Assembly (NCBI GenBank): GCA_000004985.1
Contig: GG738853.1
DNA from: Naegleria gruberi
Lineage: Eukaryota
DNA: 64,000 bases
Strand: one strand, 5' to 3'
Shown here: one piece after another, positions 14,627 to 63,778 of the stretch
Numbering within the stretch: the stretch's first letter is position 1
How the letters are laid out: each line of letters starts with the position of its first letter
Made by a program: the position numbers and the translations under genes
Notes under the pieces: model-generated
Databases searched by the model: none
What the model was told of the DNA's origin: nothing
What the model saw: the letters and a program-made list of their open reading frames with translations, nothing else

Positions 14627-14744
14627 GACTACGGCCATATCACGATGAATGCACCTCATCCCGTCTGATTTGAGAAGTTAAGCATCGTCGAGCCACATCA
14701 GTACTGAGGTTGGAGACAACTTGGGAACCTGTGGTGCTGTAGTC
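14627..14744 (+). rRNA. rrn5: 5S ribosomal RNA gene (copy 1)
   Basis: 'GACTACGGCCATATCACGATGAATGCACCTCATCCCGTCTGATTTGAGAAGTTAAGCATCGTCGAGCCACATCAGTACTGAGGTTGGAGACAACTTGGGAACCTGTGGTGCTGTAGTC' matches the 5S consensus (CGGCCATA, CCCGTC, GAAGTTAAGC, GGTGCTGTAG). The 5' and 3' ends pair to form helix I. The 3' domain resembles the Dictyostelium 5S sequence. Confidence 0.93.
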
Positions 14745-14749
14745 TTTTT
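14745..14749 (+). terminator. Pol III terminator (T5 run) directly after 5S copy 1
   Basis: TTTTT immediately follows the 5S 3' end. After it comes a short direct repeat, 'ttaatttttgaaattttttt' x2, at 14749..14790. Confidence 0.7.
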
Positions 14750-15133
14750 AATTTTTGAAATTTTTTTTAATTTTTGAAATTTTTCAAGAAGTAAATTTAT
14801 GAATTCAGATAATGATTCCAAAAAAGAGAATTCAATTTAATATGTTGAAAGAGCATTCTTATGGAGATACAACCCTCAAAATATTTGGAACACTCATTGA
14901 AAAGCAAGCATGTTATTGTCAATTTTTAAGAAAAAACAATTTGGTTCTATTTTACCAATTGAATGATTCTGTTGTTTTAAAAGCGTAATGCAAAACAGGT
15001 CTATGCCAGGTATAATAGTCAGTGTCATCAAATACGTTGGTGAGGATATTCTTTTGTGTGAGCTCGTCACAAACACGTATTTCTTCCAATGTTGTTGGCT
15101 TAATGGTGAGTGTTTTGGAATCACAGATACCTC

Positions 15134-16138
15134 TCAACACAATGATGACATAATGTTTGACATTTGTTTTAGGGTTCCTTTGATTTCATCTGCTTCTGTT
15201 TTGATGATAGCGTCAATTACTTTGGCTATTTTTTCATCTGGCAAGGTTATTTCACCATTTACAAAGCTGGCAATCTTCTCATCATTAGATTTCAAAGATA
15301 TTGAGCCACACTCTTCTTCTAACAAAGTTGTGTGATTGCTAGAAATATGAATGGCACTGGCAAGTTGCTCTTCCACAAACTGAAGCATGTAGCCTGCAAT
15401 AATTTGGCAATCCTCGTTATCTGAAATGAAATCACTCAAGACAACAAGGGGAAATGGTGTTTCAATATCTTTTTCAGTTACTCTTTTGATTTTGATTTCT
15501 TCAAGTACTTGCTTTACACTTTCCAGCATTTGATGATTGTAAATTCTTTTTCTCTTTTGGATATCCGGAGAGCACTTTTGATATTGGGAATTGGTGATTG
15601 GTTTCGTAATGTAATATAAATAACATTCTTTCTTCCCTTTAGCTCTGTTTCTACTGCCGTTGATTTCCCACAATTAGATGGGCCATAAATATAGCTTAAC
15701 CTTGGAATGCAATCAGTTCTACACAACTCCTTCAACACTTCTGCTCCTTTTTTCACACAAGTCTATTCCTGGTATCATTGCAATTGTTGGTTCGAATGGT
15801 GTGTTCATTTTCTCCCTTACTTCTTGCAACAAGTCCTCAGAGTAATTGAGGTTATTTTGTTGTTGTTGCTGTGCATCTCTAGCGACCAATATGGCGTATA
15901 CTGATAAGGTGATACTCAACACGGATGATGCAGTAGTGAGTATTTTGCTTAGTGTTTCCTTTTCATTGGTTTTGTTCTCCTTGGTTTGTTGTGAGGAATC
16001 TGGTAATGGAACGAAACTGTACATCTCATTTCTGGTCCGAAAGAAAAAACTAAGAAACGATTGCTCACAACAGTACGGTATAACGAGCGAAGCATCTTGT
16101 ATTTTTTTGTTGCACCAATTGAAATAGGGGAGTTTCAC
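15134..16138 (-). pseudogene. P-loop NTPase locus with an N-terminal TM segment. Three overlapping ORFs are offset by single-nucleotide frame shifts. It is either a pseudogene or a real gene carrying homopolymer sequencing errors.
   Basis: ORF 15719..16138 (a TM-like 'ILTTASSVLSITLSVYAILVA' followed by polyQ), ORF 15514..15756 (Walker A 'YIYGPSNCGKST') and ORF 15134..15673 are consecutive. Each changes frame at an A-run (for example A6 at about 15759-15764, A5 at about 15560). No GT...AG pair of a plausible size can bridge the shifts. Confidence 0.4.
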
Positions 16139-16143
16139 AGAAA

Positions 16144-16752
16144 CTAAATTTCTTCTGTACTACTACTTGAATAATCATAGATTTCTCCAATATCTTCATC
16201 AGTTACAGCATACAGATAATCCAGATATGAGTTTGGAGCGTATTGAAAAATGAAATCAAATGGGGTTGGAATTTGAGAAAGAAATGAATCGCAGAACCAT
16301 AGGAAATGTTTGTCCTTTCTGATTGACTCTGGAAACTCAGTATTTAAAAAGCCAAATGATTCCCAAGTAGGAGTATTATCAAGTACTCTTTCGTCTAATT
16401 TCAATTGTTTGAATAATTTAACGATCTCTAATCTTGGTGCTGTTTTACAACTAAATATATCAATCCATTCATTTTCAGATGTTGAATGTTCATCAGCTGA
16501 AAATCCAATCCTTGCCTTAATATCAAGGTTAACATCTATGAATCTGTTGTAGTAAGTACTTGCTTTCACGTACAGATTTACACAAATTGGTTTCTCTTTC
16601 AAATAAATATTCATTTCAGATTCAATATTAGCAAACTGATTCAGTCCGTCATCGGCAGCCAAGGTTAGAAAATAGCATGGTTGAGTGGTTTTTAACATGT
16701 ACCATGATTTAGTAATATCGGTATTGTACAGCTTACTATTGATATTATGCAC
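16144..16752 (-). CDS. Hypothetical protein of 202 aa as shown in the track, open further upstream to an acceptor near 16826. It may be the 5' part of the adjacent P-loop locus.
   Basis: The ORF ends 5 nt before the start of the P-loop ORF at 16138, in a different frame. The upstream frame is open through 'YFRKCCFHKFDSFERNRLDNPYYNEGKFQHDRV' and preceded by a TATTTCAG acceptor. I see no recognised domain. Confidence 0.35.
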   Translation of the reverse strand: MHNINSKLYNTDITKSWYMLKTTQPCYFLTLAADDGLNQFANIESEMNIYLKEKPICVNLYVKASTYYNRFIDVNLDIKARIGFSADEHSTSENEWIDIFSCKTAPRLEIVKLFKQLKLDERVLDNTPTWESFGFLNTEFPESIRKDKHFLWFCDSFLSQIPTPFDFIFQYAPNSYLDYLYAVTDEDIGEIYDYSSSSTEEI

Positions 16753-16882
16753 CCTATCATGTTGGAACTTTCCTTCATTGTAATATGGATTGTCTAGTCT
16801 GTTTCTTTCAAAGCTGTCAAATTTGTGAAAACAACACTTTCTGAAATAGGTCCAATCAGTAATTTCATTAACATTCGAACAT

Positions 16883-17200
16883 TTATTTCCACATTAAATT
16901 AAACAAAGTTTTCCAAAATAAGGAATTTTCATAAATTTTCTCCATCATTTGACGATTAATTTTGTAAATTTGATTGTAAAATAAATTTTCATAACCTGCA
17001 AATGAATAAATTAATAACCATTCATCACCAGTTAATTTGGTTAGTGGTTTTTCTTCCGATTTCTTTTTCTTTTTTAATTGTTCAGAGACTTTATCTAATA
17101 TTGTGGAATAATCAAACTCTTCAGAATTTTCCTGTGAACGAAGGATGGAAACAATTCTCTCCACAAGTTGGTCACCATTTCTCTTTCTCTTGAGAGACAT
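16883..17200 (-). CDS. Hypothetical small basic protein of 105 aa. It might be the 5' exon of the downstream 16144..16752 gene.
   Basis: The ORF 'MSLKRKRNGDQLVERIVSILRS...' is followed about 60 nt downstream by an acceptor leading into the next ORF. No clean canonical donor is seen, so I list it separately. Confidence 0.3.
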   Translation of the reverse strand: MSLKRKRNGDQLVERIVSILRSQENSEEFDYSTILDKVSEQLKKKKKSEEKPLTKLTGDEWLLIYSFAGYENLFYNQIYKINRQMMEKIYENSLFWKTLFNLMWK

Positions 17201-17316: not shown

Positions 17317-20300
17317 TTATTCGTGCATATCAGAAACAAGGGAACCATTTGAATCATACAAACTGGCAAACTTCAAAACAGCTTCTTGTGAGAATTCACC
17401 TGGAGCAATACCTCTCTGAGATTTGTATTCAGTCTTACGAGGAACCATTTCAATACAATCCAAAACTGGACAAACAGAGTAACACAAAGTACAACCAGTA
17501 CAATCGTCATCACTAACCTTTGGAATGTGAGTGTCCTTATCGAAAGAAATGGCTTGATAACCACTGTCATTACAAGTCAGGTAGCATTTACCACAATTGA
17601 TACACTTGTCATCATTAATGACAGCAATAACGTGGTGATCGAATTTTGGATCCAATTCACCCCAAGAACCAATTCTTGGAACAGCCTTAGCAACAACATC
17701 GTTAATGGATGGAACCTTGATAACTTGTTCAATTTCAGCTGGCATATTATCTTCATGTCTACCAGTCAAAACTCCCTTTTCTTCAATTTCCTTGACATCG
17801 AGTTCTCTTCTCTTCAATTCATATGGACCAAATCTTGGCAAACCAACTTTCTTTTCTTCTACAACTGGTGGAGTTTGACCAGTCCAACCCTTGAATGCAG
17901 GATGAGCATTGATATACATCAAGGCCTTCAATCCAGTAATGTAATCTTCAATAACAGTAAAATCTTGATTTTGGACAGATGAACAAATTTGGACAACTGA
18001 AGCACCAGCATGAATGAATTGCAAAGCAACATCAGCACTGTCACAACCACCAGTAGCAAGAATTGGATAACCAGGAATGTTCTTAGCAACCTTAGAAACA
18101 GCCTTCATAGCAATTGGTCTAATTGCATTACCACTGACACCACCGTAGGTAGTTCTCTTATTGGCACCAACTGCTGGCCAGGCGGTCGCATCAGGTTTAA
18201 GAGTCATTAAACCAGAAACAGTATTTGTGGCAGTAACACCATCAGCACCACCATCTCTAGCAGCAGTAGCAATTTGCAAAACATCAGTAACGTTTGGAGT
18301 GAGCTTGGCAAAGAATGGAATCTTGGTAACAGCTCTAACCCATTTACAAATATTCAAAACAAGATATGGATCCATACCACAAGCCAAACCTAAACCCTTT
18401 TCACCCATACCGTGAGGACAAGACAAGTTCAATTCAATCATGTCAGCACCAGCTTGTTCGGCCTTAGTAGCAAGGAACTTCCAATCTTCTTCCTTAAAAG
18501 CAGCCATGATAGAGGCAATAACAATCTTAGTTGGATGTTTCTTCTTCAACTCAGTAATAGCAGTACACCAATAAGTAGCAGACTTTTCAGAAATCAATTC
18601 AATATTCATGAAAGCAGATTGATGAGGACCTCTGTTTGTAGTGACTGAACCACGAATAATTCTTGGTGAAACATTAGTAACCAAATCCTTATCCAAACCA
18701 AAAGTCTTAGTGACAGCAAAGCCCCAACCAGCATCAAAAGCACGATCAATCATATCAGCAGTAGTACAAGGTGGAGCAGAAGCAAGACCGTATGGATTTT
18801 CAAACTTGACACCACATACTTCAACTGAAATATCAACCTTATCAACTTCAGTAAAGAACTTTGGAAGTTGAGGAGCATCAGAGAGTCTATCAGCCTTATG
18901 CAATTCTTCTTGGATATAACGATGAATGTACCAAGATGCAGTTTTACCATCATTGCTTGCCTCTACTGTCATACCACTACCAATCAAGTCACCACCAGCA
19001 AAAACACCCTTGACTTCGGTTTCCATTGTTGTATTATTGATAGGAACTCTACCATAATTATTAACAGCAACAGGTGAAAGGGACTTGATAATATTTTCAC
19101 TCTTCAAAGTGCAACCAAATGCAGAAACGACAAAGTCACATTTGAGTCTGATGAACTGATCTTCATCAATGACAAGTTTACCATTAGAGTCAACTTCAGT
19201 CTTGTACAATTCGATACCAGAAATTCTGCCATCCTTCATGATAATTTGTTTTGGTAAACAATTTGGAAGTACGTCACACTTTTCCTTCATGGCTGGTTCA
19301 AATTCTTCTTCGACACATCTCATTTCAGAGAAACCACGACGGAAAACAAGAACAGCCTTATCAGCTCCACATCTAATACTAGAACCATAAACATCGAGGG
19401 CAGTATCACCAATACCCAAAATAACAACCTTACCATATAACTTTGGAAGCTTTTGGTTTGATGCCTTACAACCACAGATACCATCCTTTGATGATTGCAT
19501 GACCGCTGGAAGGAAATCCTTAGAGGTGTAGAAACCTTGTTCTGGGGTCAATCCGTCAAAGATTGATTCCTTATTTGGATCTGGAAGACCAATACCCAAA
19601 AAGATGGCTTCATAACCATCATTCTTGAGTGATTCAACAGTGAAATCTCTTCCTAATTCCTTGTTATATTCGACTTTAACACCCAAATCCTTCATCAAGT
19701 TGACTTCAAACTCAACAGCTTCGTATGGGAGACGATTTTGTGGAATTTCTTGAGTGCTCAAACCACCAGCATATTGTCCCTTTTCAAAGATGGTAACATT
19801 TTGATAACCCATTCTAGCCAAGAAAGTAGCACATGAAATACTGGCAGGACCTGCACCAACGAGAGCAATCTTGGCCTTGTATGATTCTGGTAATTTGTCG
19901 AGAGGAGTAGCATCTGGGTCTCTGATTTGTTTCAATTTCATCTTTCTAAAGACATCAGTTGCGAATGCTTGCAAACCACTATTGTTTTTTGATTGTTGTT
20001 ATTGAAAGTAAATTGCATTACACAAATATTGGTAATAAATGTATTTTGTGTTAAAATCATGGTGAAATTTAACAACTTACTTGATATTAATTGGGCCTTC
20101 TTCGGTAGCAGCCAAGTTACAGCTTCCTGCACACAAATTACTAACAGGACAAACCATACCACATGACAAACCTAGTGGATTGTCAGAGAAAATCATCTTG
20201 GCAGCACCATAGTAATTTCCAGTAGAAATACAACTAATAAAACTCTTAATATCCAATGAAGTTGGACAAGAAGATTGACATGGAGCGTCAGCACTATCAT

Positions 20301-30440: not shown

Positions 30441-32812
30441 TTACTTCTTTTTTGGAGGTTTCACAACAGGGAATTGGGAAGAAATTGAAAAATCAAAGAA
30501 TGGTGTTTGACTTGTTTGAGTTTCGTCTTTTGGAACCCTCGAACAAACAACCACTGAAACTGCATTAGTCTTGGCTACTTTCAATAATAATTCTAAAGAT
30601 TGTTTTTCGGATGGTGAAAGTTTGATATCTTGTTTCAAAACCATATCAATGGCCTTTTGTGTTGCCTCGAAATGATCTTTGGCAGAATCAAACAAATCCT
30701 TTTCACCAACAAATGATAAATCATTAGCTCTAGTATATGATTCAAAACTAACTGGTGGAGGTTGCATAGTATTGAAGAATGCTCTAAATCTGTTCGTAAA
30801 ACGAAGTTCGTCTGATGTGAGTGGATAATCAGTTTCTGCACTAATGTTAGTGTAAAGTCCTTTCTTATGCATGGCCATAAGGAACTGTTTGATGGTTTAC
30901 AATTAGATAATTATTAGAAAAATTAGATTCATATTACAACTTACTCTAAATAATCCTCTGTAGAATAAATTGTGAACTTCTGTTAAGGTTCTAGCATATA
31001 ATTGATATCTATTCAAATTGACTGGACCAGATTTTTTCTTTTTAACATCGGTAAACAATTTGGCCAGATTAGAACTTCTAATCTTTGTAATGTAGTCAAT
31101 ATACCAAGCAACTTGCACAATTTCTGTATGATGATAGATATCCAAATCAAAGCCAACTACCAAAGTTTGATGCATAATGTCAATAATGTAATCAATCATG
31201 AAGAGTGAGAATGAGAATAGCTATCACTCTTTCTAACTAATTCTATATTATTAACATCAATTCCAATCCAGGTAACATCAATTTGTTCTGCTCGTTGTTC
31301 AGCCAATCCTAGGTCAGCAATACAGTTATTGAAAATTCTTCTCAATCTCGACTTGTTATTACAATAAGCATTCAATATTTTCTGTATTATGTGGGAAAGA
31401 GCAGCAAGCCATTCTTGATACAATCTATCAGGAGTCTTCTTTTGCTTTTTGATTTCCTGGGCATGTTTTTCGGTAAGACAAATCACTTCAGTTTCTAAAT
31501 GCTTTTCAATCCAATCACCAAGCTTGTGCTTTCCAAAGATTAAATCATCCTGGAGTGTAGTATAGTAAAGGAAAGCTCTAGAAACAACAGAGTTTTCTGC
31601 TTTCTTTGAGAAGGAGAAATTTCTGAAAAAGTGCAATAATTGACTGAGACTTTGGACTTGTCTAACTCCCAAAACGTAATTCATTTCATTTAAATAGTTT
31701 GTAGCAATCTCGAGTGACGTCTCCATACTGAAAATTTCAATAGCTTTAAGTGGAGAGATGTAATTTCCAATCAAGGCAATATGTTTATCGAATCCAACAC
31801 TATGACTATTTAATTCCAATAATGTATTTTCATCCTTAATTTGTGTAAATAGAGCAAGACAAGTTGTAATTGATTTTTTACAATTGTTAACTTGTGGTGA
31901 AACAACACTAATCATTGAACTATGAATAATCAAGAAATTCTTTAAAGCATTAATAAATATGTATCTGCTAAACAAACCTTGATAAATGAAATTCTAGACA
32001 GCAATGCCTTTACAATAGTTTCCTCAATAGCACCATCTTCTTGAATTGGCTCAAAGACAACTTGTGTACTCTTTTTTGTTAAATAATCCAAACGAGAGCC
32101 AAGTTCCTTTTCCAAACTCTCCAATCGTTCCATAACAATCGATTCCTTCTCTGCTACAACTCTCAATCCACATGAATCATAGGAGAACTCCTCTTGTTCT
32201 CTACACAAAGCTTTTGACATGACAATTTCCAATTTTTCCTTGACAGATAACACACCACAAGCAAGTGCATGGAAATATTTAACAATATTCTTTCTATCTT
32301 CATAGCTACTTGCTTCCGAGACATGATCCATATGGTGAATATATTCACAAGTTAAAATTGATTGAATCAATGACCATCCTTCATACCAAGTAAACTATTT
32401 TCCAAATATATTAACAAATTAATTTGAACATGATGATGATAATATTTAAATGTAAGCAATTAATCAACAATTAACATCAACAACTTACCACTCCACATAA
32501 TAACTTATCCATCATGAATAAAATTTGTTTAATATTCAAGGTAGAAATAGGCTTGATAATTCCTTTTGAAAGTCTATCCTTTGGCCAATAAATATATTCC
32601 TTGTTAGGTCCATTGAGAAAAGTATCCATCTTTTCATCTCCCATCTCTGTTGCACTCAAAATATCATATAAATTAAATCCTGGTCCGTGAACCATCTCTC
32701 CCTCCTCGAATTCATCTTTTGTTGTATCACGGAGGAATTGTGTTACGTCCCTCCACTTACTACTTTCCAGAATTTCTTGTGAAGTTTTTGGTGGATTGTT
32801 TGTTGTGCTCAT
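30441..32812 (-). CDS. naa35: N-alpha-acetyltransferase 35 (NatC auxiliary subunit MAK10/NAA35), about 5 exons. Exon 1 is 32812..32489, exon 2 is 32394..~31978, and further exons follow down to the last exon ~30880..30441.
   Basis: 'EGEMVHGPGFNLYDILSATEMGDEKMD' matches '[27 protein letters not shown]'. 'CGV|FTWYEGWSLIQSILTCEYIHHMDH' matches '[25 protein letters not shown]'. The C-terminus 'RFRAFFNTMQPPPVSFESY...LLKVAKTNAV...FDFSISSQFPVVK' matches human 'RFAPFNSVMTPPPVHYLQF...ILKVAKPNFV...FDFSAHKYFPVVK'. The first intron (GTAAGT...AATAG, 94 nt) is secure. The internal mini-introns of 35-38 nt are tentative. Confidence 0.75.
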
Positions 32813-32952
32813 TTTTTTTAATTTTACTTTTAATTGTGTTGTGGAAATTGTTTAATTATTAAAAATTGATTGAGGTGAAGAAATGGTGATTTGTTGGGTG
32901 GAAAGAATAAGTGCTCGAGAGGGAATGTTATTTTTTGGGAGAGTTTGAATCA

Positions 32953-43386: not shown

Positions 43387-43392
43387 AAAAAA
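43387..43392 (-). terminator. Pol III terminator (T6 on the minus strand) after 5S copy 2
   Basis: The plus strand reads 'aaaaaa' at 43387-43392, which is TTTTTT immediately 3' of the 5S gene on the minus strand. Confidence 0.7.
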
Positions 43393-43510
43393 GACTACGG
43401 CACCACAGGTTCCCAAGTTGTCTCCAACCTCAGTACTGATGTGGCTCGACGATGCTTAACTTCTCAAATCGGACGGGATGAGGTGCATTCATCGTGATAT
43501 GGCCGTAGCC
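43393..43510 (-). rRNA. rrn5: 5S ribosomal RNA gene (copy 2, reverse strand)
   Basis: The reverse complement of 43393..43510 is 'GGCTACGGCCATATCACGATGAATGCACCTCATCCCGTCCGATTTGAGAAGTTAAGCATCGTCGAGCCACATCAGTACTGAGGTTGGAGACAACTTGGGAACCTGTGGTGCCGTAGTC'. It differs from copy 1 at 3 positions. Confidence 0.92.
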
Positions 43511-43753: not shown

Positions 43754-44539
43754 TTACTTAAAAGGTGGAGGAGGTATCAGAGGAATATGAGGAGGAAGAG
43801 GTGGTGTGAAGAAATGAGGTGGAGGTGGACCACCCAATAACTCTAATGGATGTGGCTTTGGAATATTCAAATTGAAGAATACACATTGTTTCTGTTGTGC
43901 TCTGTAAGTCATTTCCTTGGCAGTGGTAATTTGATAGACCTTTGAATTACATCCAGAGCAGAACCTCACCTGACGATATACAGTGTTAGTATTTAAAGGA
44001 GGAGGTGGTGGAGGAACACCAAAAGAATTAATAGGAGGTGGAGGTGGTACACTCTCAATTGGTTGATCGAGCTCTGGATCCAATATTTTCTCCTCATCAA
44101 CTATTGGCATTGCAGAAAAATCCATTGGACACTTGTAAATAAATTCACACAACTCAACAAATGGTGTATCAGTCAATGGAAATCTAACAGTTCTTCCTAA
44201 AGGGAGCATCTGTGGAGACTTTTGGACAATATGTCTAATTCTCCTCTTGAGAATGTGCAACCAATTTTTCACATTCAAATCAGCATAGAATTTAGGGAAA
44301 TACATTAATACTAATGGTTTCCAAATGGATACCTGCACTGGTGTGAATTCTTGCTTTTCTTGTTCAATCGCTAAATCATTCATTTCATTTGATAGATTTT
44401 CGGATTTGATTGGAACATCACAAGTCATGTTGAAAAATAATTTCAAATAATATTTACTGCTCAACGCAAAGAAAGAAATGTCTTTTGCAACCAAAAAGGT
44501 TCCGATGTGAATTAGCAAATCATTAGGAATTTCGTTCAT
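43754..44539 (-). CDS. F-box-like protein with a proline-rich C-terminus
   Basis: The N-terminus 'IPNDLLIHIGTFLVAKDISFFALSSKYYLKLF' is F-box-like. The C-terminus has PPPPPP tracts and a CxxC pair. Confidence 0.45.
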   Translation of the reverse strand: MNEIPNDLLIHIGTFLVAKDISFFALSSKYYLKLFFNMTCDVPIKSENLSNEMNDLAIEQEKQEFTPVQVSIWKPLVLMYFPKFYADLNVKNWLHILKRRIRHIVQKSPQMLPLGRTVRFPLTDTPFVELCEFIYKCPMDFSAMPIVDEEKILDPELDQPIESVPPPPPINSFGVPPPPPPLNTNTVYRQVRFCSGCNSKVYQITTAKEMTYRAQQKQCVFFNLNIPKPHPLELLGGPPPPHFFTPPLPPHIPLIPPPPFK

Positions 44540-44810
44540 TGTTACAACTTTCGTCTCGTTCTTTTACTGGACTAGCATCATTTAATGATGGTGATGGTTT
44601 ATTTTCCACTATTACTTGATCAATATCATCAGCAGCTTGATTATGTGAATTGGATGCATTCGAAAAGAAAGATTTTAGTTTCTTCATTTTTTTTATCTTT
44701 GCAACTCTGAACTATTCAGATCTGCACTGACGATTGAAACTGTCAAACTTTACAAAATATCTTGAGAGATAGTTAATAGTTCATTTGTTATTCACAAATA
44801 TTGAAAAAAA

Positions 44811-59917: not shown

Positions 59918-62900
59918 TTACTTCATATCCTTCAGCTCGACATATTTAAATAATGCAGTATTGGGTAGAAGTGTATCTTTCTTCTCACTAATGTCTTGCA
60001 TTTGTCTCTTGATGAGTAGGAGGCAATTAAGAATGGTTTCAAAGGTTGGACGTACTCGATAATCATCTGCCCAACAAGATTTCATTAATTCCAAATATTC
60101 ACTCACCAACAGTCCAATGCTATCTTTCTGAGTGGGATAGGTTTTGAATTCTGGCATGAATTCTTCAAGCCATTCCATCTTTTCCTCCTCACTGAATGGA
60201 ATTAGCGGTCTTTCACCTTGCATGACACGAGCTAGGACTGTGAATGGAGTTTTTGGATCTGCATTCAAGGAATTTCTCTTTTGATTAGAGTGGAATTTGT
60301 GGAGCTTGTAGGACTTTCCGTTCATGTATGGGTTGTCCTCAAAGAACATTTCCCACATTATAATACTGAAACTGAAAACATCCTTTTGAGATTTGTAAAT
60401 ATTATAATTGAGTAATAATGTACTTACAACTGCCGTAGTGATCATATTGTTATCATTATTTCCGTCATCTGATTTCATAACTTCTGGAGCTATATAGAAT
60501 AATGTGCCTACGCATGTTGTGGTTGTGTGGCAAGTATTGGACATGATCTTACTCAATCCAAAATCACACACTTTACAAATTCCTTTAGAATCAATTAAAA
60601 TATTAGCAGGTTTCAAATCTCTGAGAATAGAAAGAGTGAATATCAAGTAATCTAAGCTCACTTACCTGTGAATAATTTTCAAACTATGCAGATATACCAT
60701 TCCACAAGTGATATCGATGAGAGTATTCAATTTTTGAATGAAGGAAATTTGAGTAGGATTTTCTGTTCTTCTCATTTCATTAATTAGCTTTTCTAAACTT
60801 CCCTTCTCCAAATATTCGACAACCAAATATTGTTTGTGGAGACTAATAGAAATACCATAGAATAGTACAATATTAGGATGTCTAAGTTTACATAATAGAG
60901 CCGCTTCCTTTTCAATCTCATCAGAATCCATACTTCCAGACGAAGTAGTGTCAATTCTCAAGCATTTAACTGCGACAGCATTATGGTGCCATTTACCTAA
61001 ATAGACAACTCCTGATCCTCCTTCTCCAATTTTTTTCTCCAAAAATATTTGATCTATACTAATGACAAAACTGTTCTTCTTATCATGGCTGTGCTGATGA
61101 CCTGGTTCATTGAGAGAAATATACTCATTCTCCAATAGTCTCTTCTCAATGTCCTTCTCAGCCTTATCTCGTTGCACCCAATACAGAACCTTCCTTCCTG
61201 CCTTTACACAGACACAAATGACTAGAGACAATATAAGGAGTGATAAAGCAAATACTACAATAGTCACGCACACAGCTACAATGATTATATAATCAGTAGG
61301 TGTATTCTCTTTACAAATGTAGGAAGATGAGTGTGACAGATAGTTAGCTTGGTTAATACTGAATCCATTTGGGCAGGGGATTACGTTGATGGTCAACTCG
61401 GTACTAGTTCTTAAAAAAGTGAGCTTGGCTCTAATTTTAGTCGGTACGAATGTGGAATTTGAAGCAGTAACAAACATGTTGTTGAAATCTGCGCTAGTTG
61501 AGAGTGAAAAGCTCTCAGGGTTAGTTGTAGTGACAAAACTTTCCTTGCATGTAAAAAACTGATTGCCTACAAAGTCGGTAAAGGTTGGAGTAAATGAAAA
61601 CGCTTGACCTGGATATAAAGTCATTTCAGTTTGCTTGGCATCTCTTGATATTGGTCCCCAGTCAACTGATTTAATTGGTGTGGAAATGTCATTACCATGA
61701 CTAGTAGCAGAGTTTCCTGTAATTGTATTGGTTTTAGTGTCGAGCTCCAAGTCATTTAGCGAGAAGAAAATTCCACCACCAGAATAGACAGCCTTATTGT
61801 TGATAACTGTGTTATTGACAAACTTGGCAGCTGGGTCTGGGGTGAAGATTCTCAGTGATATTGCCCCACCAGAAACAGCAGAATTCCTTTCAAATCTATT
61901 AGAAACCAATTCAATTTCAGATCCAGTATTGCTTGAATCAAAGTAAATAGCACCACCATATCCTTTGCATATTTCTCTATTGCAATTCACAATATCTTTT
62001 GATACCACTGAGTTCTCTATGAATGTTGTGGTGACAATTGACATGGTATCATGTGACAGAGCAGCTCCTCCAGAATACAGAGCCCTATTACCAATGAAAA
62101 GGCAATCTTCCAAATGAAGTCCATATCGAGAGTAGATAGCTCCCCCTATTGTTGCATAATTGTCTTTGAATTGACACATTGAAAACAATACTGGTGTGTA
62201 GCTGATATAAATGGCACCACCACCCACATTGCTTGCTCTATTTCTAATAAAGGAGCACCCAGTAAAATATGAAAGAGATCCATATGTATACTCCTCATTG
62301 GTAAATGAAATAGCTCCATATGAACCACTGTTATTGATAAAGGAAACATTGTTCATTAGGACAGAGGAAACTTGATTCAATCTGAGAGAGCTAAAGTCTG
62401 CTACATTATTCTCAAACACAGAGTCTACCACAGCGAGACTTCTAATATTTCTAAGTTGGACATTATTTCCAGCAATACCTGCAATCCCATTAGAAACAAT
62501 CATTTCATAAATTGCGGCCATGGCTGTCTGCTCAATTCTTAATGATGATTTTCCAATGTATCTATCAAAAGTCATTGCAAAAATGACAGCAACTTTACAA
62601 TATGAAACTCTCAGAATTGGAAGATTTTCGCGTGGGGATTCTACCAATTCAATGCTAGCTTTATATGCTGCAAATTCATCCACATCCTGAAATAATAAAT
62701 ATCCTCCAACTCTCAGTACTGACTCATAAAGCCATACTGACGTAATGGACGAGAATACATCATTCTTTTGAATTGGTAAACTCGAATTACTAATAATTAA
62801 GGTTTTAAAATTTTTAAATACCAAATGATTCAACACTTCCACTTGTACATTGTGAAAAAAGGCACTTGTGACAACACCTGTTGGATCCCCTAATATTAAT

Positions 62901-63778
62901 CCGAGATGACCTTTAGAATTTACATTAATCAACGCAACAGACTCATAAATACTATTCAGTGTAGTATTGTTCAATACAGCATCCCTGATCACAACACAAC
63001 CCAAAACAAATGTATTATAAAGAGATATGCCATTAAAAATCATGTAAACTTTCGGATTGGGAGTATAATGCAATAAATATGCATTATTACAATTAACAAT
63101 CTTATTTTCTCCATGAATTTGGTAAATGATCGTGTAATCTAATGAATACATTTTCATAAGAAAGTTCAATTCAACTATTCCAGTACAAGATGCACTCGGC
63201 ACATCAGTTGCCAACAAGATATCAATCACAACAAGTGCAATTGGAATTTTTGTGTTATTGGCCTCATTATAAATATCCAATAATTTTGTTGTTAAATCTG
63301 TAATTATTTGTTTTCCAATTTTTGTAAAAGTATTACATCCAATCACACAATCCATATATTCCGAATCTGGAGTATCGGCAACATAGACATAACTTAATTT
63401 CTGATAGGCACATCTACCCTTCTGTACAAAATAACAATCTGTAATCCTCCTCTCTGTAAAGGTATCCACCTCATATTTGACATAATTTATACCTGCTTTC
63501 ATGTATCGTGGAGTAAGATATAGAGTTTGATGATCTAGTTTTTCGGTGGGTGAAAAAACTGGATTATTATTGTTTGTAGAGGCTACATTAATTATAGTAT
63601 TAGTAGTGTTACTACTAATCGGAGTGATGAAATTATTTACAAATACTAGTATTACTAGAATGATGGTAAAAAGTTTCGAATAATAAATACATGGTTTCGA
63701 ATAATTTATAAAAGGAATGATGATGGTGTGAGGGAATTTATTCCATGCATCAATGTTAATGAGATTTAAATTTCGCAT
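59918..63778 (-). CDS. Receptor-type TKL protein kinase. It has a signal/anchor, about 800 aa of right-handed parallel beta-helix (PbH1 / pectin-lyase-like) ectodomain, a single TM and a cytoplasmic kinase. Exons are 63778..60666 and 60620..59918.
   Basis: The ectodomain has repeated 'N.x.N.AxxGGAI' beta-helix rungs ('NRFERNSAVSGGAISL', 'NNKAVYSGGGIFF', 'GNRALYSGGAALS'). The TM is 'IIIVAVCVTIVVFALSLLILSLVICVCV'. The kinase has 'IGEGGSGVVYLGKW...AVK' and 'IIHR|DLKPANILI...DFGLSK...APE'. A 45-nt intron (GTAAGT...TCTCAG) splits the HRD motif in phase. Confidence 0.75.

What the first reader, a model, noticed from the sequence alone, without database searches (positions are those of the whole stretch)
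15134..16880. Chain of adjacent ORFs offset by +1/-1 frames at homopolymer runs, either a decaying gene or sequencing frameshifts
Four consecutive minus-strand ORFs (16883-17200?, 16144-16752, 15719-16138, 15514-15756, 15134-15673) abut or overlap by a few bases in different frames. The stop of 16144..16752 is 5 nt from the start of the next ORF. Two further shifts coincide with A5/A6 runs, and no canonical intron can bridge them. The product would be a TM-anchored P-loop NTPase ('YIYGPSNCGKST'). Either this is a young pseudogene in an otherwise intact, gene-dense region or the assembly has indel errors here. This matters for annotation quality.
Basis: seen in the sequence. Interest (0 to 1): 0.55.

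Follow-up and report, generated by a model that had tools for sequence, protein, structure and literature searches.

The report
Two neighbouring decaying genes in Naegleria
The chain of frame-shifted ORFs is two adjacent Naegleria gruberi genes (an F-box-like protein and a membrane-anchored P-loop NTPase), both broken by real small insertions and deletions; these are ordinary young pseudogenes that the reference annotation lists as three small "predicted proteins".

Summary
The window is Naegleria gruberi NEG-M. The chain is two same-strand genes, not one.

**Gene 1 (17200→16144, F-box-like, about 348 aa).** It is cut by a 4-nt tandem duplication, AAAT→AAATAAAT, at 16888-16881. An about 99%-identical metagenome contig (L004) and two more distant homologs read straight through this point.

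**Gene 2 (16024→14952, TM-anchored P-loop NTPase).**
- It aligns colinearly with a 425-aa homolog (L003) only if three 1-nt frame changes are allowed: +1 in 15762-15722, -1 in about 15558-15533, and -1 in about 15160-15137.
- It also lacks about 57 residues that the homolog has.
- The "shift" between ORFs 16144..16752 and 15719..16138 is simply the 119-nt spacer between the two genes.

**What the evidence excludes or disfavours.**
- Introns are excluded, because every candidate would remove conserved residues.
- Programmed frameshifting is excluded, because the break sites are not shared between homologs.
- Assembly error is unlikely. The other long ORFs in the window are unbroken, or are joined by GT-AG introns. 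The sister haplotype carries different lesions: a 34-nt deletion that removes the ATG, and a 669-nt deletion in gene 2.

RefSeq lists fragments of the locus as XP_002680618, XP_002680619 and XP_002680620.

Verdict: ordinary young pseudogenes. The finding is useful for annotation and has low novelty.

The parts
16886..17200 (-). Gene 1, 5' part (ORF A; annotated as NAEGRDRAFT_64240 / XP_002680620.1, 105 aa). It has an F-box-like N-terminal region.
   Evidence: ORF. The exact sequence is P0127. It is colinear with residues 1-102 of P0128 and with P0123 and P0124.
16881..16888 (-). 4-nt tandem duplication, AAAT AAAT. It gives a +1 frameshift and creates the stop TAA at 16885-16883.
   Evidence: In the DNA alignment, the window has 4 extra bases relative to the ~99%-identical contig L004. 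P0128 reads 'LMWK-CSNVNEITDW' across this point. P0123 and P0124 keep the following 'DW.Y.R..C..K[FY].SF' contiguous.
16144..16880 (-). Gene 1, 3' part (B frame), ending at stop TAG 16146-16144. The sub-part 16144-16614 is annotated as NAEGRDRAFT_64239 / XP_002680619.1 (156 aa).
   Evidence: Homologs end 16-17 residues after the aligned B region.
16025..16143 (-). Intergenic spacer between gene 1 and gene 2 (119 nt). It contains the GTG at 16138 that the ORF list used as a start.
   Evidence: The homolog's Met aligns with ATG 16024. The spacer is conserved in L004 down to 16077. The DPD-to-gene 1 spacer has a similar size, 116 nt.
15754..16024 (-). Gene 2 segment C: start ATG 16024, polar N-terminus, hydrophobic anchor 'ILTTASSVLSITLSVYAILVA', and linker.
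   Evidence: Frameshift-aware alignment to the L003 homolog. Alignment A2.
15722..15762 (-). Interval that must contain frameshift 1 (+1, equivalent to a 1-nt insertion). The A6 run at 15753-15748 is the likeliest site.
   Evidence: Overlap of open frames C and D. The homolog reads 'PGLPNIKRQGAESICHY' in one frame across it.
15536..15747 (-). Gene 2 segment D: Walker A motif (GPSNCGKST) and the following strand 'NVIYITLRN'.
15533..15558 (-). Interval that must contain frameshift 2 (-1, equivalent to a 1-nt deletion). It contains the A4 and A5 runs and 'ATCAAATG'.
   Evidence: The homolog is continuous across 'DALSILKTDKKDLQVPEIMLALKEVL'. The window's D frame matches up to 'SALRISK..' and its E frame matches from 'MLESVKQVL'.
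15156..15532 (-). Gene 2 segment E: Walker-B-like 'PLVVLSDF' and the conserved 'LQFVEEQLAS'. The part from the ATG to stop 15134 is annotated as NAEGRDRAFT_64238 / XP_002680618.1 (131 aa).
15270..15300 (-). Approximate site of an internal deletion of ~57 codons relative to the homolog.
   Evidence: Alignment gaps of 6 + 51 residues. L007 retains this region.
15137..15160 (-). Interval that must contain frameshift 3 (-1). There is no homopolymer here; the local sequence is 'ATGTCATCATTGTG'.
   Evidence: The E frame matches the homolog up to 'KQMSN' and the F frame matches from 'VLRGICDS'. Sequence.
14952..15155 (-). Gene 2 segment F: conserved C-terminus '..NILTNVFDDTDYYTWHRPVLHYAFKTTESFNW', with stop TAA at 14954-14952.
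   Evidence: tblastn of F against L003 gives E = 1e-16. Alignments.

Best explanation
The region holds two separate, tandem, same-strand, lineage-restricted genes of Naegleria gruberi, directly downstream of the dihydropyrimidine dehydrogenase (DPD) gene. Both have been inactivated by small real mutations and are decaying.

**Gene 1 (17200→16144).** It encodes an F-box-like protein of about 348 aa. A 4-bp tandem duplication, (AAAT)2, shifts the frame by +1 and gives an immediate TAA stop.

**Gene 2 (16024→14952).** It encodes a P-loop NTPase with an N-terminal hydrophobic anchor. It carries three single-nucleotide frame changes (+1, -1, -1) and has lost about 57 codons.

**Shown:**
- the frame breaks exist;
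- they are absent from homologs;
- no intron can account for them;
- the break sites are not conserved between copies;
- a sister haplotype or strain carries different disabling lesions.

**Inferred:**
- the lesions arose by replication slippage in short repeats and A-runs, after selection on the locus relaxed;
- no functional protein is made;
- the three RefSeq 'predicted proteins' are fragments.
For: **Organism and annotation**
- The flanking DPD ORF is 84% identical to the N. lovaniensis protein.
- ORF A, part of B and part of E are exactly XP_002680620.1, XP_002680619.1 and XP_002680618.1 of N. gruberi.

**Gene 1**
- A full HMMER scan with B found P0123 (351 aa) and P0124 (NAEGRDRAFT_78004, 391 aa). 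Both align B to their C-terminal 215 residues.
- A and B hit one continuous frame in L005.
- P0128 (348 aa, ENA contig L004) reads through the junction.
- The DNA alignment shows the window has 4 extra bases, making AAATAAAT.
- The invariant residues D, W, Y, R, C, K, S and F lie in the stretch that the 52/64-nt intron candidates would remove.

**Gene 2**
- P0121 matches with E = 4e-41.
- L003 has one 369-codon ORF colinear with D+E+F.
- The frameshift-aware alignment runs from ATG 16024 to the last residue, with exactly three shifts and a ~57-aa gap.

**Relaxed constraint and real mutations**
- L004 is about 99% identical (8 mismatches in ~1208 aligned nt) but has its own lesions: a 34-nt deletion that removes ATG 17200, and a 669-nt deletion (window 16076-15408) that removes gene 2's start, anchor and P-loop.
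- The substitutions in gene 1 split 5 nonsynonymous to 1 synonymous.
- Other family copies are damaged too: L003 needs a -1 shift at a different site, and L007 has in-frame stops, a frameshift and truncations.

**Against assembly error**
- 29 other long ORFs in the window, totalling 13,864 codons, are unbroken.
- Every other exon junction I examined has a GT-AG intron.
Against: - No read-level or transcript data could be examined. The three 1-nt shifts in gene 2 are not confirmed by an independent sequence, because L004 is deleted across two of the sites and ends before the third.
- Neither gene has an in-frame stop codon apart from those caused by the shifts, so the decay is recent; alternatively, some lesions could be errors.
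- The 5:1 N:S ratio rests on six substitutions.
- NEG-M may carry an intact second allele that is not in the assembly.
- L004 is a metagenome contig, so its deletions could in principle be assembly artefacts.
Confidence: 0.8

Rival explanations
1. Assembly or base-calling indel errors in the N. gruberi reference: the genes are intact in the organism and the shifts are artefacts.
For:
- There are no independent in-frame stop codons.
- The gene 2 shift sites are not covered by any second sequence.
Against: - The gene 1 lesion is a 4-nt tandem duplication, which is not a typical base-calling error.
- Four lesions fall within 1.75 kb, while 13,864 codons of neighbouring long ORFs have none.
- Gene 2 also lacks ~57 codons in frame, which is not an error type.
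- The ~99%-identical contig L004 carries different and larger disabling deletions in both genes. Selection on the locus therefore looks relaxed regardless of any errors.
Confidence: 0.1
2. The ORFs are exons of intact gene(s), joined by short spliceosomal introns with weak donors.
For: - GT...AG pairs in the right phase exist at every junction.
- The genome probably has some short weak-donor introns: the best candidates at two NAA35 junctions have GTTTGT (38 nt) and GTTAAT (35 nt) donors.
Against: - Every candidate would remove residues that are conserved and contiguous in homologs:
  - A>B would lose 'NVNEITDWTYFR'.
  - C>D would lose 'KGAEVLKELCR' or 'VREKMNTPFEPTIAMIPGID'.
  - D>E would lose 'VIYITLRNQ...' or 'MLESVKQVLEEIKIKR'.
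  - E>F would lose most of F.
- Candidate splice-site scores total <=8 (<=11.7 for one that deletes the P-loop), against 14-22 for 16 real introns. Candidate GC is 0.28-0.46, against 0.19-0.33.
Confidence: 0.02
3. Programmed ribosomal frameshifting or transcriptional slippage. The A>B junction reads 'AAA TAA A', which resembles a Euplotes-type +1 site, and both gene 2 and its L003 homolog change frame between the anchor and the NTPase domain.
For: - The sequence at 16888-16882 is AAA TAA A.
- The window needs a +1 shift at or near an A6 run. L003 needs a -1 shift at CAAAAGAAG about 17 codons upstream.
Against: - The gene 1 site is a derived 4-nt duplication that is absent from a ~99%-identical haplotype and from the paralogs.
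- The gene 2 sites differ in position and direction between copies.
- Three shifts of mixed sign in one mRNA have no precedent outside Euplotes. Naegleria uses standard stop codons throughout the window.
- There are no canonical X XXY YYZ heptamers at the -1 sites (sequence).
Confidence: 0.03
4. One long gene (A through F), with five shifts.
For: All segments lie on the same strand and abut each other.
Against: - Homologs of A+B terminate 16-17 residues after the B region and have no NTPase part.
- The NTPase homolog begins with its own Met plus anchor, and its upstream neighbour is an unrelated RWP-RK gene.
- In L005, the gene next to the gene 1 homolog is an LRR protein.
Confidence: 0.02

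Closest known systems
Unitary/young pseudogenes inactivated by slippage indels (frameshift pseudogenes)
   Same: - Intact or near-intact homologs exist.
- The disabling lesions are small indels in short repeats or A-runs, plus an internal deletion.
- Different lesions occur in closely related haplotypes.
- There is an excess of nonsynonymous changes.
   Different: - Two unrelated neighbouring genes are both hit.
- No nonsense substitutions have appeared yet.
- The expression status is unknown.
P-loop NTPases of the AAA_22 / ATPase_2 (PF13401 / PF01637) type
   Same: - A Walker A motif, GPSN[CT]GKS.
- It is followed by a beta-strand-like 'NV[IV]YITLRN'.
- A hhhhSD Walker-B-like motif lies ~65-80 residues later.
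- There are weak Pfam matches over the first ~75 positions.
   Different: - All Pfam scores are below the gathering cut-offs: 20.9 vs 33.2 for ATPase_2, and 22.2 vs 27 for AAA_22.
- The protein has an N-terminal hydrophobic anchor.
- Only two relatives (L003 and L007) were found in public collections.
- No solved-structure relative was found.
F-box proteins (PF00646)
   Same: The motif 'L..DEWLLIYSF.G...LF........IN......KIYE...FW' resembles the F-box helix pattern. It is conserved in P0123 and P0124.
   Different: No Pfam F-box hit for any of the four sequences. The C-terminal 215-residue domain matches no known family.
Euplotes-type +1 programmed frameshift (AAA-TAA)
   Same: The local sequence AAA TAA A sits at the gene 1 break.
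   Different: The site was created by a recent 4-nt duplication. It is not conserved and lies outside any organism known to use this mechanism.

Membership tests
Pseudogene (frameshift-disabled) | Homologs with an uninterrupted reading frame exist | tested here: met
   - Gene 1: P0128, P0123 and P0124.
- Gene 2: a 369-codon ORF in L003 covers D+E+F.
Pseudogene (frameshift-disabled) | Frame-disrupting lesions relative to those homologs, not bridgeable by introns | tested here: met
   Intron candidates were scored and rejected.
Pseudogene (frameshift-disabled) | The lesions are present in the organism's DNA, not sequencing artefacts | tested here: inconclusive
   The evidence is indirect only: the type of lesion (a 4-nt duplication and a 57-codon deletion), the clean neighbouring ORFs, and the different lesions in L004. 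No reads were available.
Pseudogene (frameshift-disabled) | Relaxed selective constraint | tested here: inconclusive
   The N:S ratio is 5:1 for gene 1 against L004, based on six substitutions. L004 and L007 carry independent disabling lesions.
Pseudogene (frameshift-disabled) | No full-length protein product | not testable with these tools
   No transcript or proteome data were available.
Spliceosomal introns at the junctions | Removal of the GT-AG segment restores colinearity with homologs | tested here: not met
   All candidates delete conserved residues.
Programmed ribosomal frameshift | A shift site conserved in position and direction among homologs | tested here: not met
P-loop NTPase, AAA_22/ATPase_2 families | Walker A motif GxxxxGK[ST] | tested here: met
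   GPSNCGKST in the window. GPSNTGKS in L003. GPSNAGKS in L007.
P-loop NTPase, AAA_22/ATPase_2 families | Pfam score above the gathering threshold | tested here: not met
   ATPase_2 scores 20.9 bits against a cut-off of 33.2. AAA_22 scores 22.2 against 27.
F-box (PF00646) | A profile match to the F-box domain | tested here: not met
   No Pfam hit for ORF A, the A+B fusion, P0128, P0123 or P0124. The resemblance is by eye only.

The most novel reading that the evidence does not exclude
Every copy of the anchored NTPase seen so far changes frame between, or close to, the membrane anchor and the NTPase domain, at an A-run. The window needs +1 at or near A6. L003 needs -1 at CAAAAGAAG, about 17 codons upstream. 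This could reflect a slippage-prone on/off switch (phase-variation-like, or transcriptional slippage) that controls whether the full anchored NTPase or only a short anchor peptide is made, rather than plain decay.
Probability: 0.04. Interest if true: 0.65.

Novelty: new member of a known kind. Interest (0 to 1): 0.2.

Why it matters
- **Annotation quality.** Three RefSeq/UniProt 'predicted proteins' of N. gruberi (NAEGRDRAFT_64238, 64239 and 64240) are fragments of two disabled genes and should be re-annotated as pseudogenes.
- **A worked example.** A chain of abutting ORFs in a gene-dense protist genome can be resolved without reads, by aligning against metagenome-derived sister haplotypes.
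- **Rapid turnover.** Small lineage-restricted gene families in Heterolobosea appear to turn over quickly, with different lesions in ~99%-identical haplotypes.
- **Limits.** There is no new mechanism and no open question is addressed.

Tried and rejected
1. **Euplotes-like +1 frameshifting or an alternative genetic code.** Rejected. Stop usage is standard across the window and the AAA-TAA site is a derived duplication.
2. **Tiny-intron organism (Stentor-like).** Rejected. Real introns here are 35-324 nt, with mostly GTAAGT donors.
3. **Synteny with N. lovaniensis (L001) and Willaertia magna (L002) downstream of DPD.** Only DPD itself is conserved, and no homolog of A-F is present.
4. **First word-indexed protein search with a 731-aa concatenation of A-F.** No hits. 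A focused 355-aa gene 2 query then found P0121.
5. **Exact look-ups of four window-encoded products and the paralog P0124.** Not on record.
6. **Pfam scoring of alternative splice and shift models of gene 2.** Not discriminating, at 18.6-20.5 bits.
7. **PWM scoring of intron candidates.** Suggestive, but the training set was selected by strong donors. It is weakened further because the best intron candidates at two NAA35 junctions have weak donors.
8. **Exact DNA pattern scan of JGI metagenomes for further N. gruberi-like haplotypes.** Nothing found.
9. **Viral origin of the NTPase.** No relative in IMG/VR.
10. **PDB profile search.** Nothing meaningful.
11. **AlphaFold2 on P0121 without an alignment.** pLDDT 38.6, unusable, so no fold search was run.
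12. **Paralogs within the window.** None.
Full report
**1. The observation**

Read from stop to stop, the strand holds six open segments:

| Segment | Coordinates | Frame | Codons |
|---|---|---|---|
| A | 17239-16886 | 1 | 118 |
| B | 16893-16147 | 2 | 249 |
| C | 16159-15722 | 1 | 146 |
| D | 15762-15517 | 2 | 82 |
| E | 15673-15137 | 1 | 179 |
| F | 15185-14955 | 0 | 77 |

The frame steps between successive segments are +1, -1, +1, -1 and -1. This layout is far beyond chance. In 2000 shuffles of the same 2291 nt, the longest open segment averaged 70 codons. P(longest >=118) was 0.0075, and the mean number of segments of 77 codons or more was 0.33, against six observed. Codon-usage scoring, trained on 29 other long ORFs of the window, follows the same succession of frames.

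**2. Context**

The window is a gene-dense eukaryotic genome with 33% GC.
- The ORF just upstream, 17317-19974, is dihydropyrimidine dehydrogenase (DPD). It is 84% identical to the Naegleria lovaniensis protein and 70% identical to that of Willaertia magna.
- Exact look-ups identify the source as the N. gruberi reference. ORF A is XP_002680620.1 (NAEGRDRAFT_64240, 105 aa). The ATG 16614-to-stop part of B is XP_002680619.1 (NAEGRDRAFT_64239, 156 aa). The ATG-to-stop part of E is XP_002680618.1 (NAEGRDRAFT_64238, 131 aa).
- The genome has ordinary spliceosomal introns of 35-324 nt. Most donors are GTAAGT, GTATGT, GTGAGT or GTAGGT, and the introns are AT-rich.
- In the conserved NAA35 gene, the best intron candidates at two junctions have weak donors: GTTTGT (38 nt) and GTTAAT (35 nt). 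Splice-site scores alone therefore could not settle the question.

**3. Introns or frameshifts?**

GT...AG pairs in the right phase exist at every junction. They score poorly: donor plus acceptor totals are <=8, against 14-22 for 16 real introns, and GC is 0.28-0.46 against 0.19-0.33.

Homologs give the decisive evidence.
- A full HMMER scan with segment B found, besides the self-hit, P0123 (351 aa) and P0124 (391 aa, the N. gruberi paralog NAEGRDRAFT_78004). In both, B aligns to the C-terminal ~215 residues and is preceded by 120-175 residues.
- In locus L005, A and B hit one continuous frame.
- The 90% cluster of the annotated fragments contains P0128, a 348-aa protein from an ENA metagenome contig (L004). 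It reads '...TLFNLMWKCSNVNEITDWTYFRKCCFHKFDSF...' straight across the A/B junction.
- At DNA level, L004 matches window 17324-16077 with 8 mismatches. The window has four extra bases, which turn AAAT into AAATAAAT at 16888-16881. This shifts the frame by +1 and creates the TAA at 16885-16883.
- The stretch that the 52- or 64-nt intron candidates would remove contains residues that are invariant in all three homologs (D, W, Y, R, C, K, S, F). The A/B junction therefore has no intron.

**4. One gene or two?**

Gene 1 homologs end 16-17 residues after the B-like region. In L005 the next gene downstream is an unrelated LRR protein.

A focused search with a fused C-D-E-F query found P0121 (E = 4e-41, 33% identity), on a 10.8-kb metagenome contig, L003. 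L003 has no A/B-like sequence, and its upstream neighbour is an RWP-RK gene.

The homolog starts with its own Met, followed by a polar stretch and a hydrophobic segment. This aligns with the window from ATG 16024 ('MYSFVPLPD...ILTTASSVLSITLSVYAILVA').

The apparent B>C shift is therefore the 119-nt spacer between two genes. The DPD-to-gene 1 spacer is of similar size, at 116 nt.

**5. Gene 2**

In L003, a single 369-codon ORF covers what the window spreads over D, E and F. A protein-to-DNA alignment that allows frameshifts runs from ATG 16024 to the last residue before the TAA at 14954-14952. Its raw BLOSUM62 score is 451, and it needs exactly three shifts:
- **+1 within 15762-15722.** This interval contains the A6 run at 15753-15748.
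- **-1 within about 15558-15533.** This interval contains A4 and A5 runs and 'ATCAAATG'. The alignment slightly favours the latter end.
- **-1 within about 15160-15137.** There is no homopolymer here; the local sequence is 'ATGTCATCATTG'.

At each site the conserved residues on the two sides are adjacent in the DNA, so there is no room for an intron. The window copy also lacks about 57 residues that are present in L003 and in a second copy, L007. The Walker A motif (GPSNCGKST) and a Walker-B-like motif, 'PLVVLSD', are still recognisable.

**6. Real mutations or assembly errors?**

No reads could be inspected. The indirect evidence favours real mutations.
- The gene 1 lesion is a 4-nt tandem duplication, and gene 2 has an in-frame multi-codon deletion. 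Neither is a typical base-calling error.
- 29 other long ORFs in the window (13,864 codons) are uninterrupted. Every other exon junction I examined has a GT-AG intron.
- The ~99%-identical contig L004 lacks the duplication but has different disabling lesions. A 34-nt deletion removes ATG 17200, leaving only a TTG 'start' chosen by the gene caller. A 669-nt deletion, from window 16076 to 15408, removes gene 2's start, anchor and P-loop.
- The six substitutions in gene 1 between the two haplotypes are five nonsynonymous and one synonymous.
- Other family members are also damaged. L003 needs a -1 shift at CAAAAGAAG, at a different position from any window shift. L007 (84% nucleotide identity to L003) has in-frame stops, a frameshift and truncations.

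The absence of nonsense substitutions in the window copies suggests that the decay is recent.

**7. Other readings**

Programmed frameshifting was considered because the gene 1 junction reads AAA TAA A, and because both the window and L003 change frame near the boundary between anchor and NTPase domain. It is rejected for three reasons:
- The gene 1 site is a derived duplication, absent from a sister haplotype and from the paralogs.
- The gene 2 sites differ in place and sign between copies.
- Stop codon usage in the window is standard.

A small residual probability remains for a slippage-based switch at A-runs.

**8. Comparison with known families**

Gene 2 is a P-loop NTPase by motif. Its Pfam matches are below threshold: ATPase_2 at 20.9 bits against 33.2, and AAA_22 at 22.2 against 27. 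There are no relatives among viral contigs or in PDB sequences, and the AlphaFold2 model of P0121 was unusable (pLDDT 38.6).

Gene 1 looks F-box-like by eye but has no Pfam hit.

Both are small, lineage-restricted families. L003 and L007 come from a metagenome of a terrestrial cyanobacterial culture (IMG 3300037860; PMC8354539). They presumably derive from a co-cultured amoeba, but I did not establish the taxon.

**9. Verdict**

- there are two neighbouring genes, not one;
- one apparent shift is an intergenic spacer;
- one lesion is a 4-nt duplication;
- the NTPase gene extends a further frame-shifted segment down to 14952.

This is an ordinary phenomenon with value for annotation. Interest is low.

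Noticed in passing
window 14627-14745 (+) and 43392-43510 (-): Two dispersed 5S rRNA genes (Rfam 105-106 bits). One lies ~200 nt downstream of the decayed NTPase gene, on the opposite strand.
   Followed up: no
window 30444-32851 (-), junctions near 31977-31940 and 31255-31221: The conserved NAA35/Mak10 gene has two exon junctions with overlapping ORFs in different frames and no consensus donor. The best candidates are very short introns with GTTTGT (38 nt) and GTTAAT (35 nt) donors. Neither was verified by transcripts or orthologs.
   Followed up: partly
L004 (ENA ERZ929261, k127_523435) vs window 17324-15342: This is a ~99%-identical N. gruberi-like haplotype from a metagenome. Over ~1.2 kb it has 8 substitutions but 6 indel events, of 2, 34, 4, 3, 1 and 669 nt. 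That is an unusually high indel-to-substitution ratio.
   Followed up: partly
L003 1917-1925: The otherwise intact NTPase homolog needs a -1 shift at CAAAAGAAG to join its Met-plus-anchor exon (frame 1) to the 369-codon NTPase ORF (frame 0). There is no GT...AG intron that would preserve the conserved residues.
   Followed up: partly
L007 743-1773 (JAESGV010004366.1): A second copy of the NTPase gene in the same metagenome assembly, 84% nucleotide identity to L003. It has in-frame stops and a frameshift, and it has lost both termini. It is a clear pseudogene.
   Followed up: yes
window 43757-44563 (-): Another ORF with an F-box-like start ('MNEIPNDLLIHIGTFL') and no Pfam hit. It is unrelated in sequence to gene 1.
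   Followed up: no
window 59918-63778 (-): A large protein kinase gene, with a 45-nt GTAAGT intron at 60665-60621 inside the kinase domain. Its N-terminal part gives a Pfam hit to the Chlamydia polymorphic membrane protein repeat (PF02415, 34.9 bits).
   Followed up: no
window 15638-15517 (-): All three forward frames of the minus strand are open simultaneously for ~120 nt around the D/E junction. The sequence here is purine-rich and T-poor.
   Followed up: no
window 15949-16095 (-): A 48-codon ORF in the gene 1/gene 2 spacer and the start of gene 2, in frame 2, begins 'MLRSLYRTVVSNRFL', which looks like a mitochondrial presequence. The homolog alignment places it out of frame, so it is probably fortuitous.
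   Followed up: partly
L001 and L002 (N. lovaniensis, Willaertia magna DPD loci): Apart from DPD itself, no similarity to the N. gruberi window was detected in the ~10 kb on either side of DPD. This suggests little conserved gene order around DPD among these heteroloboseans.
   Followed up: partly
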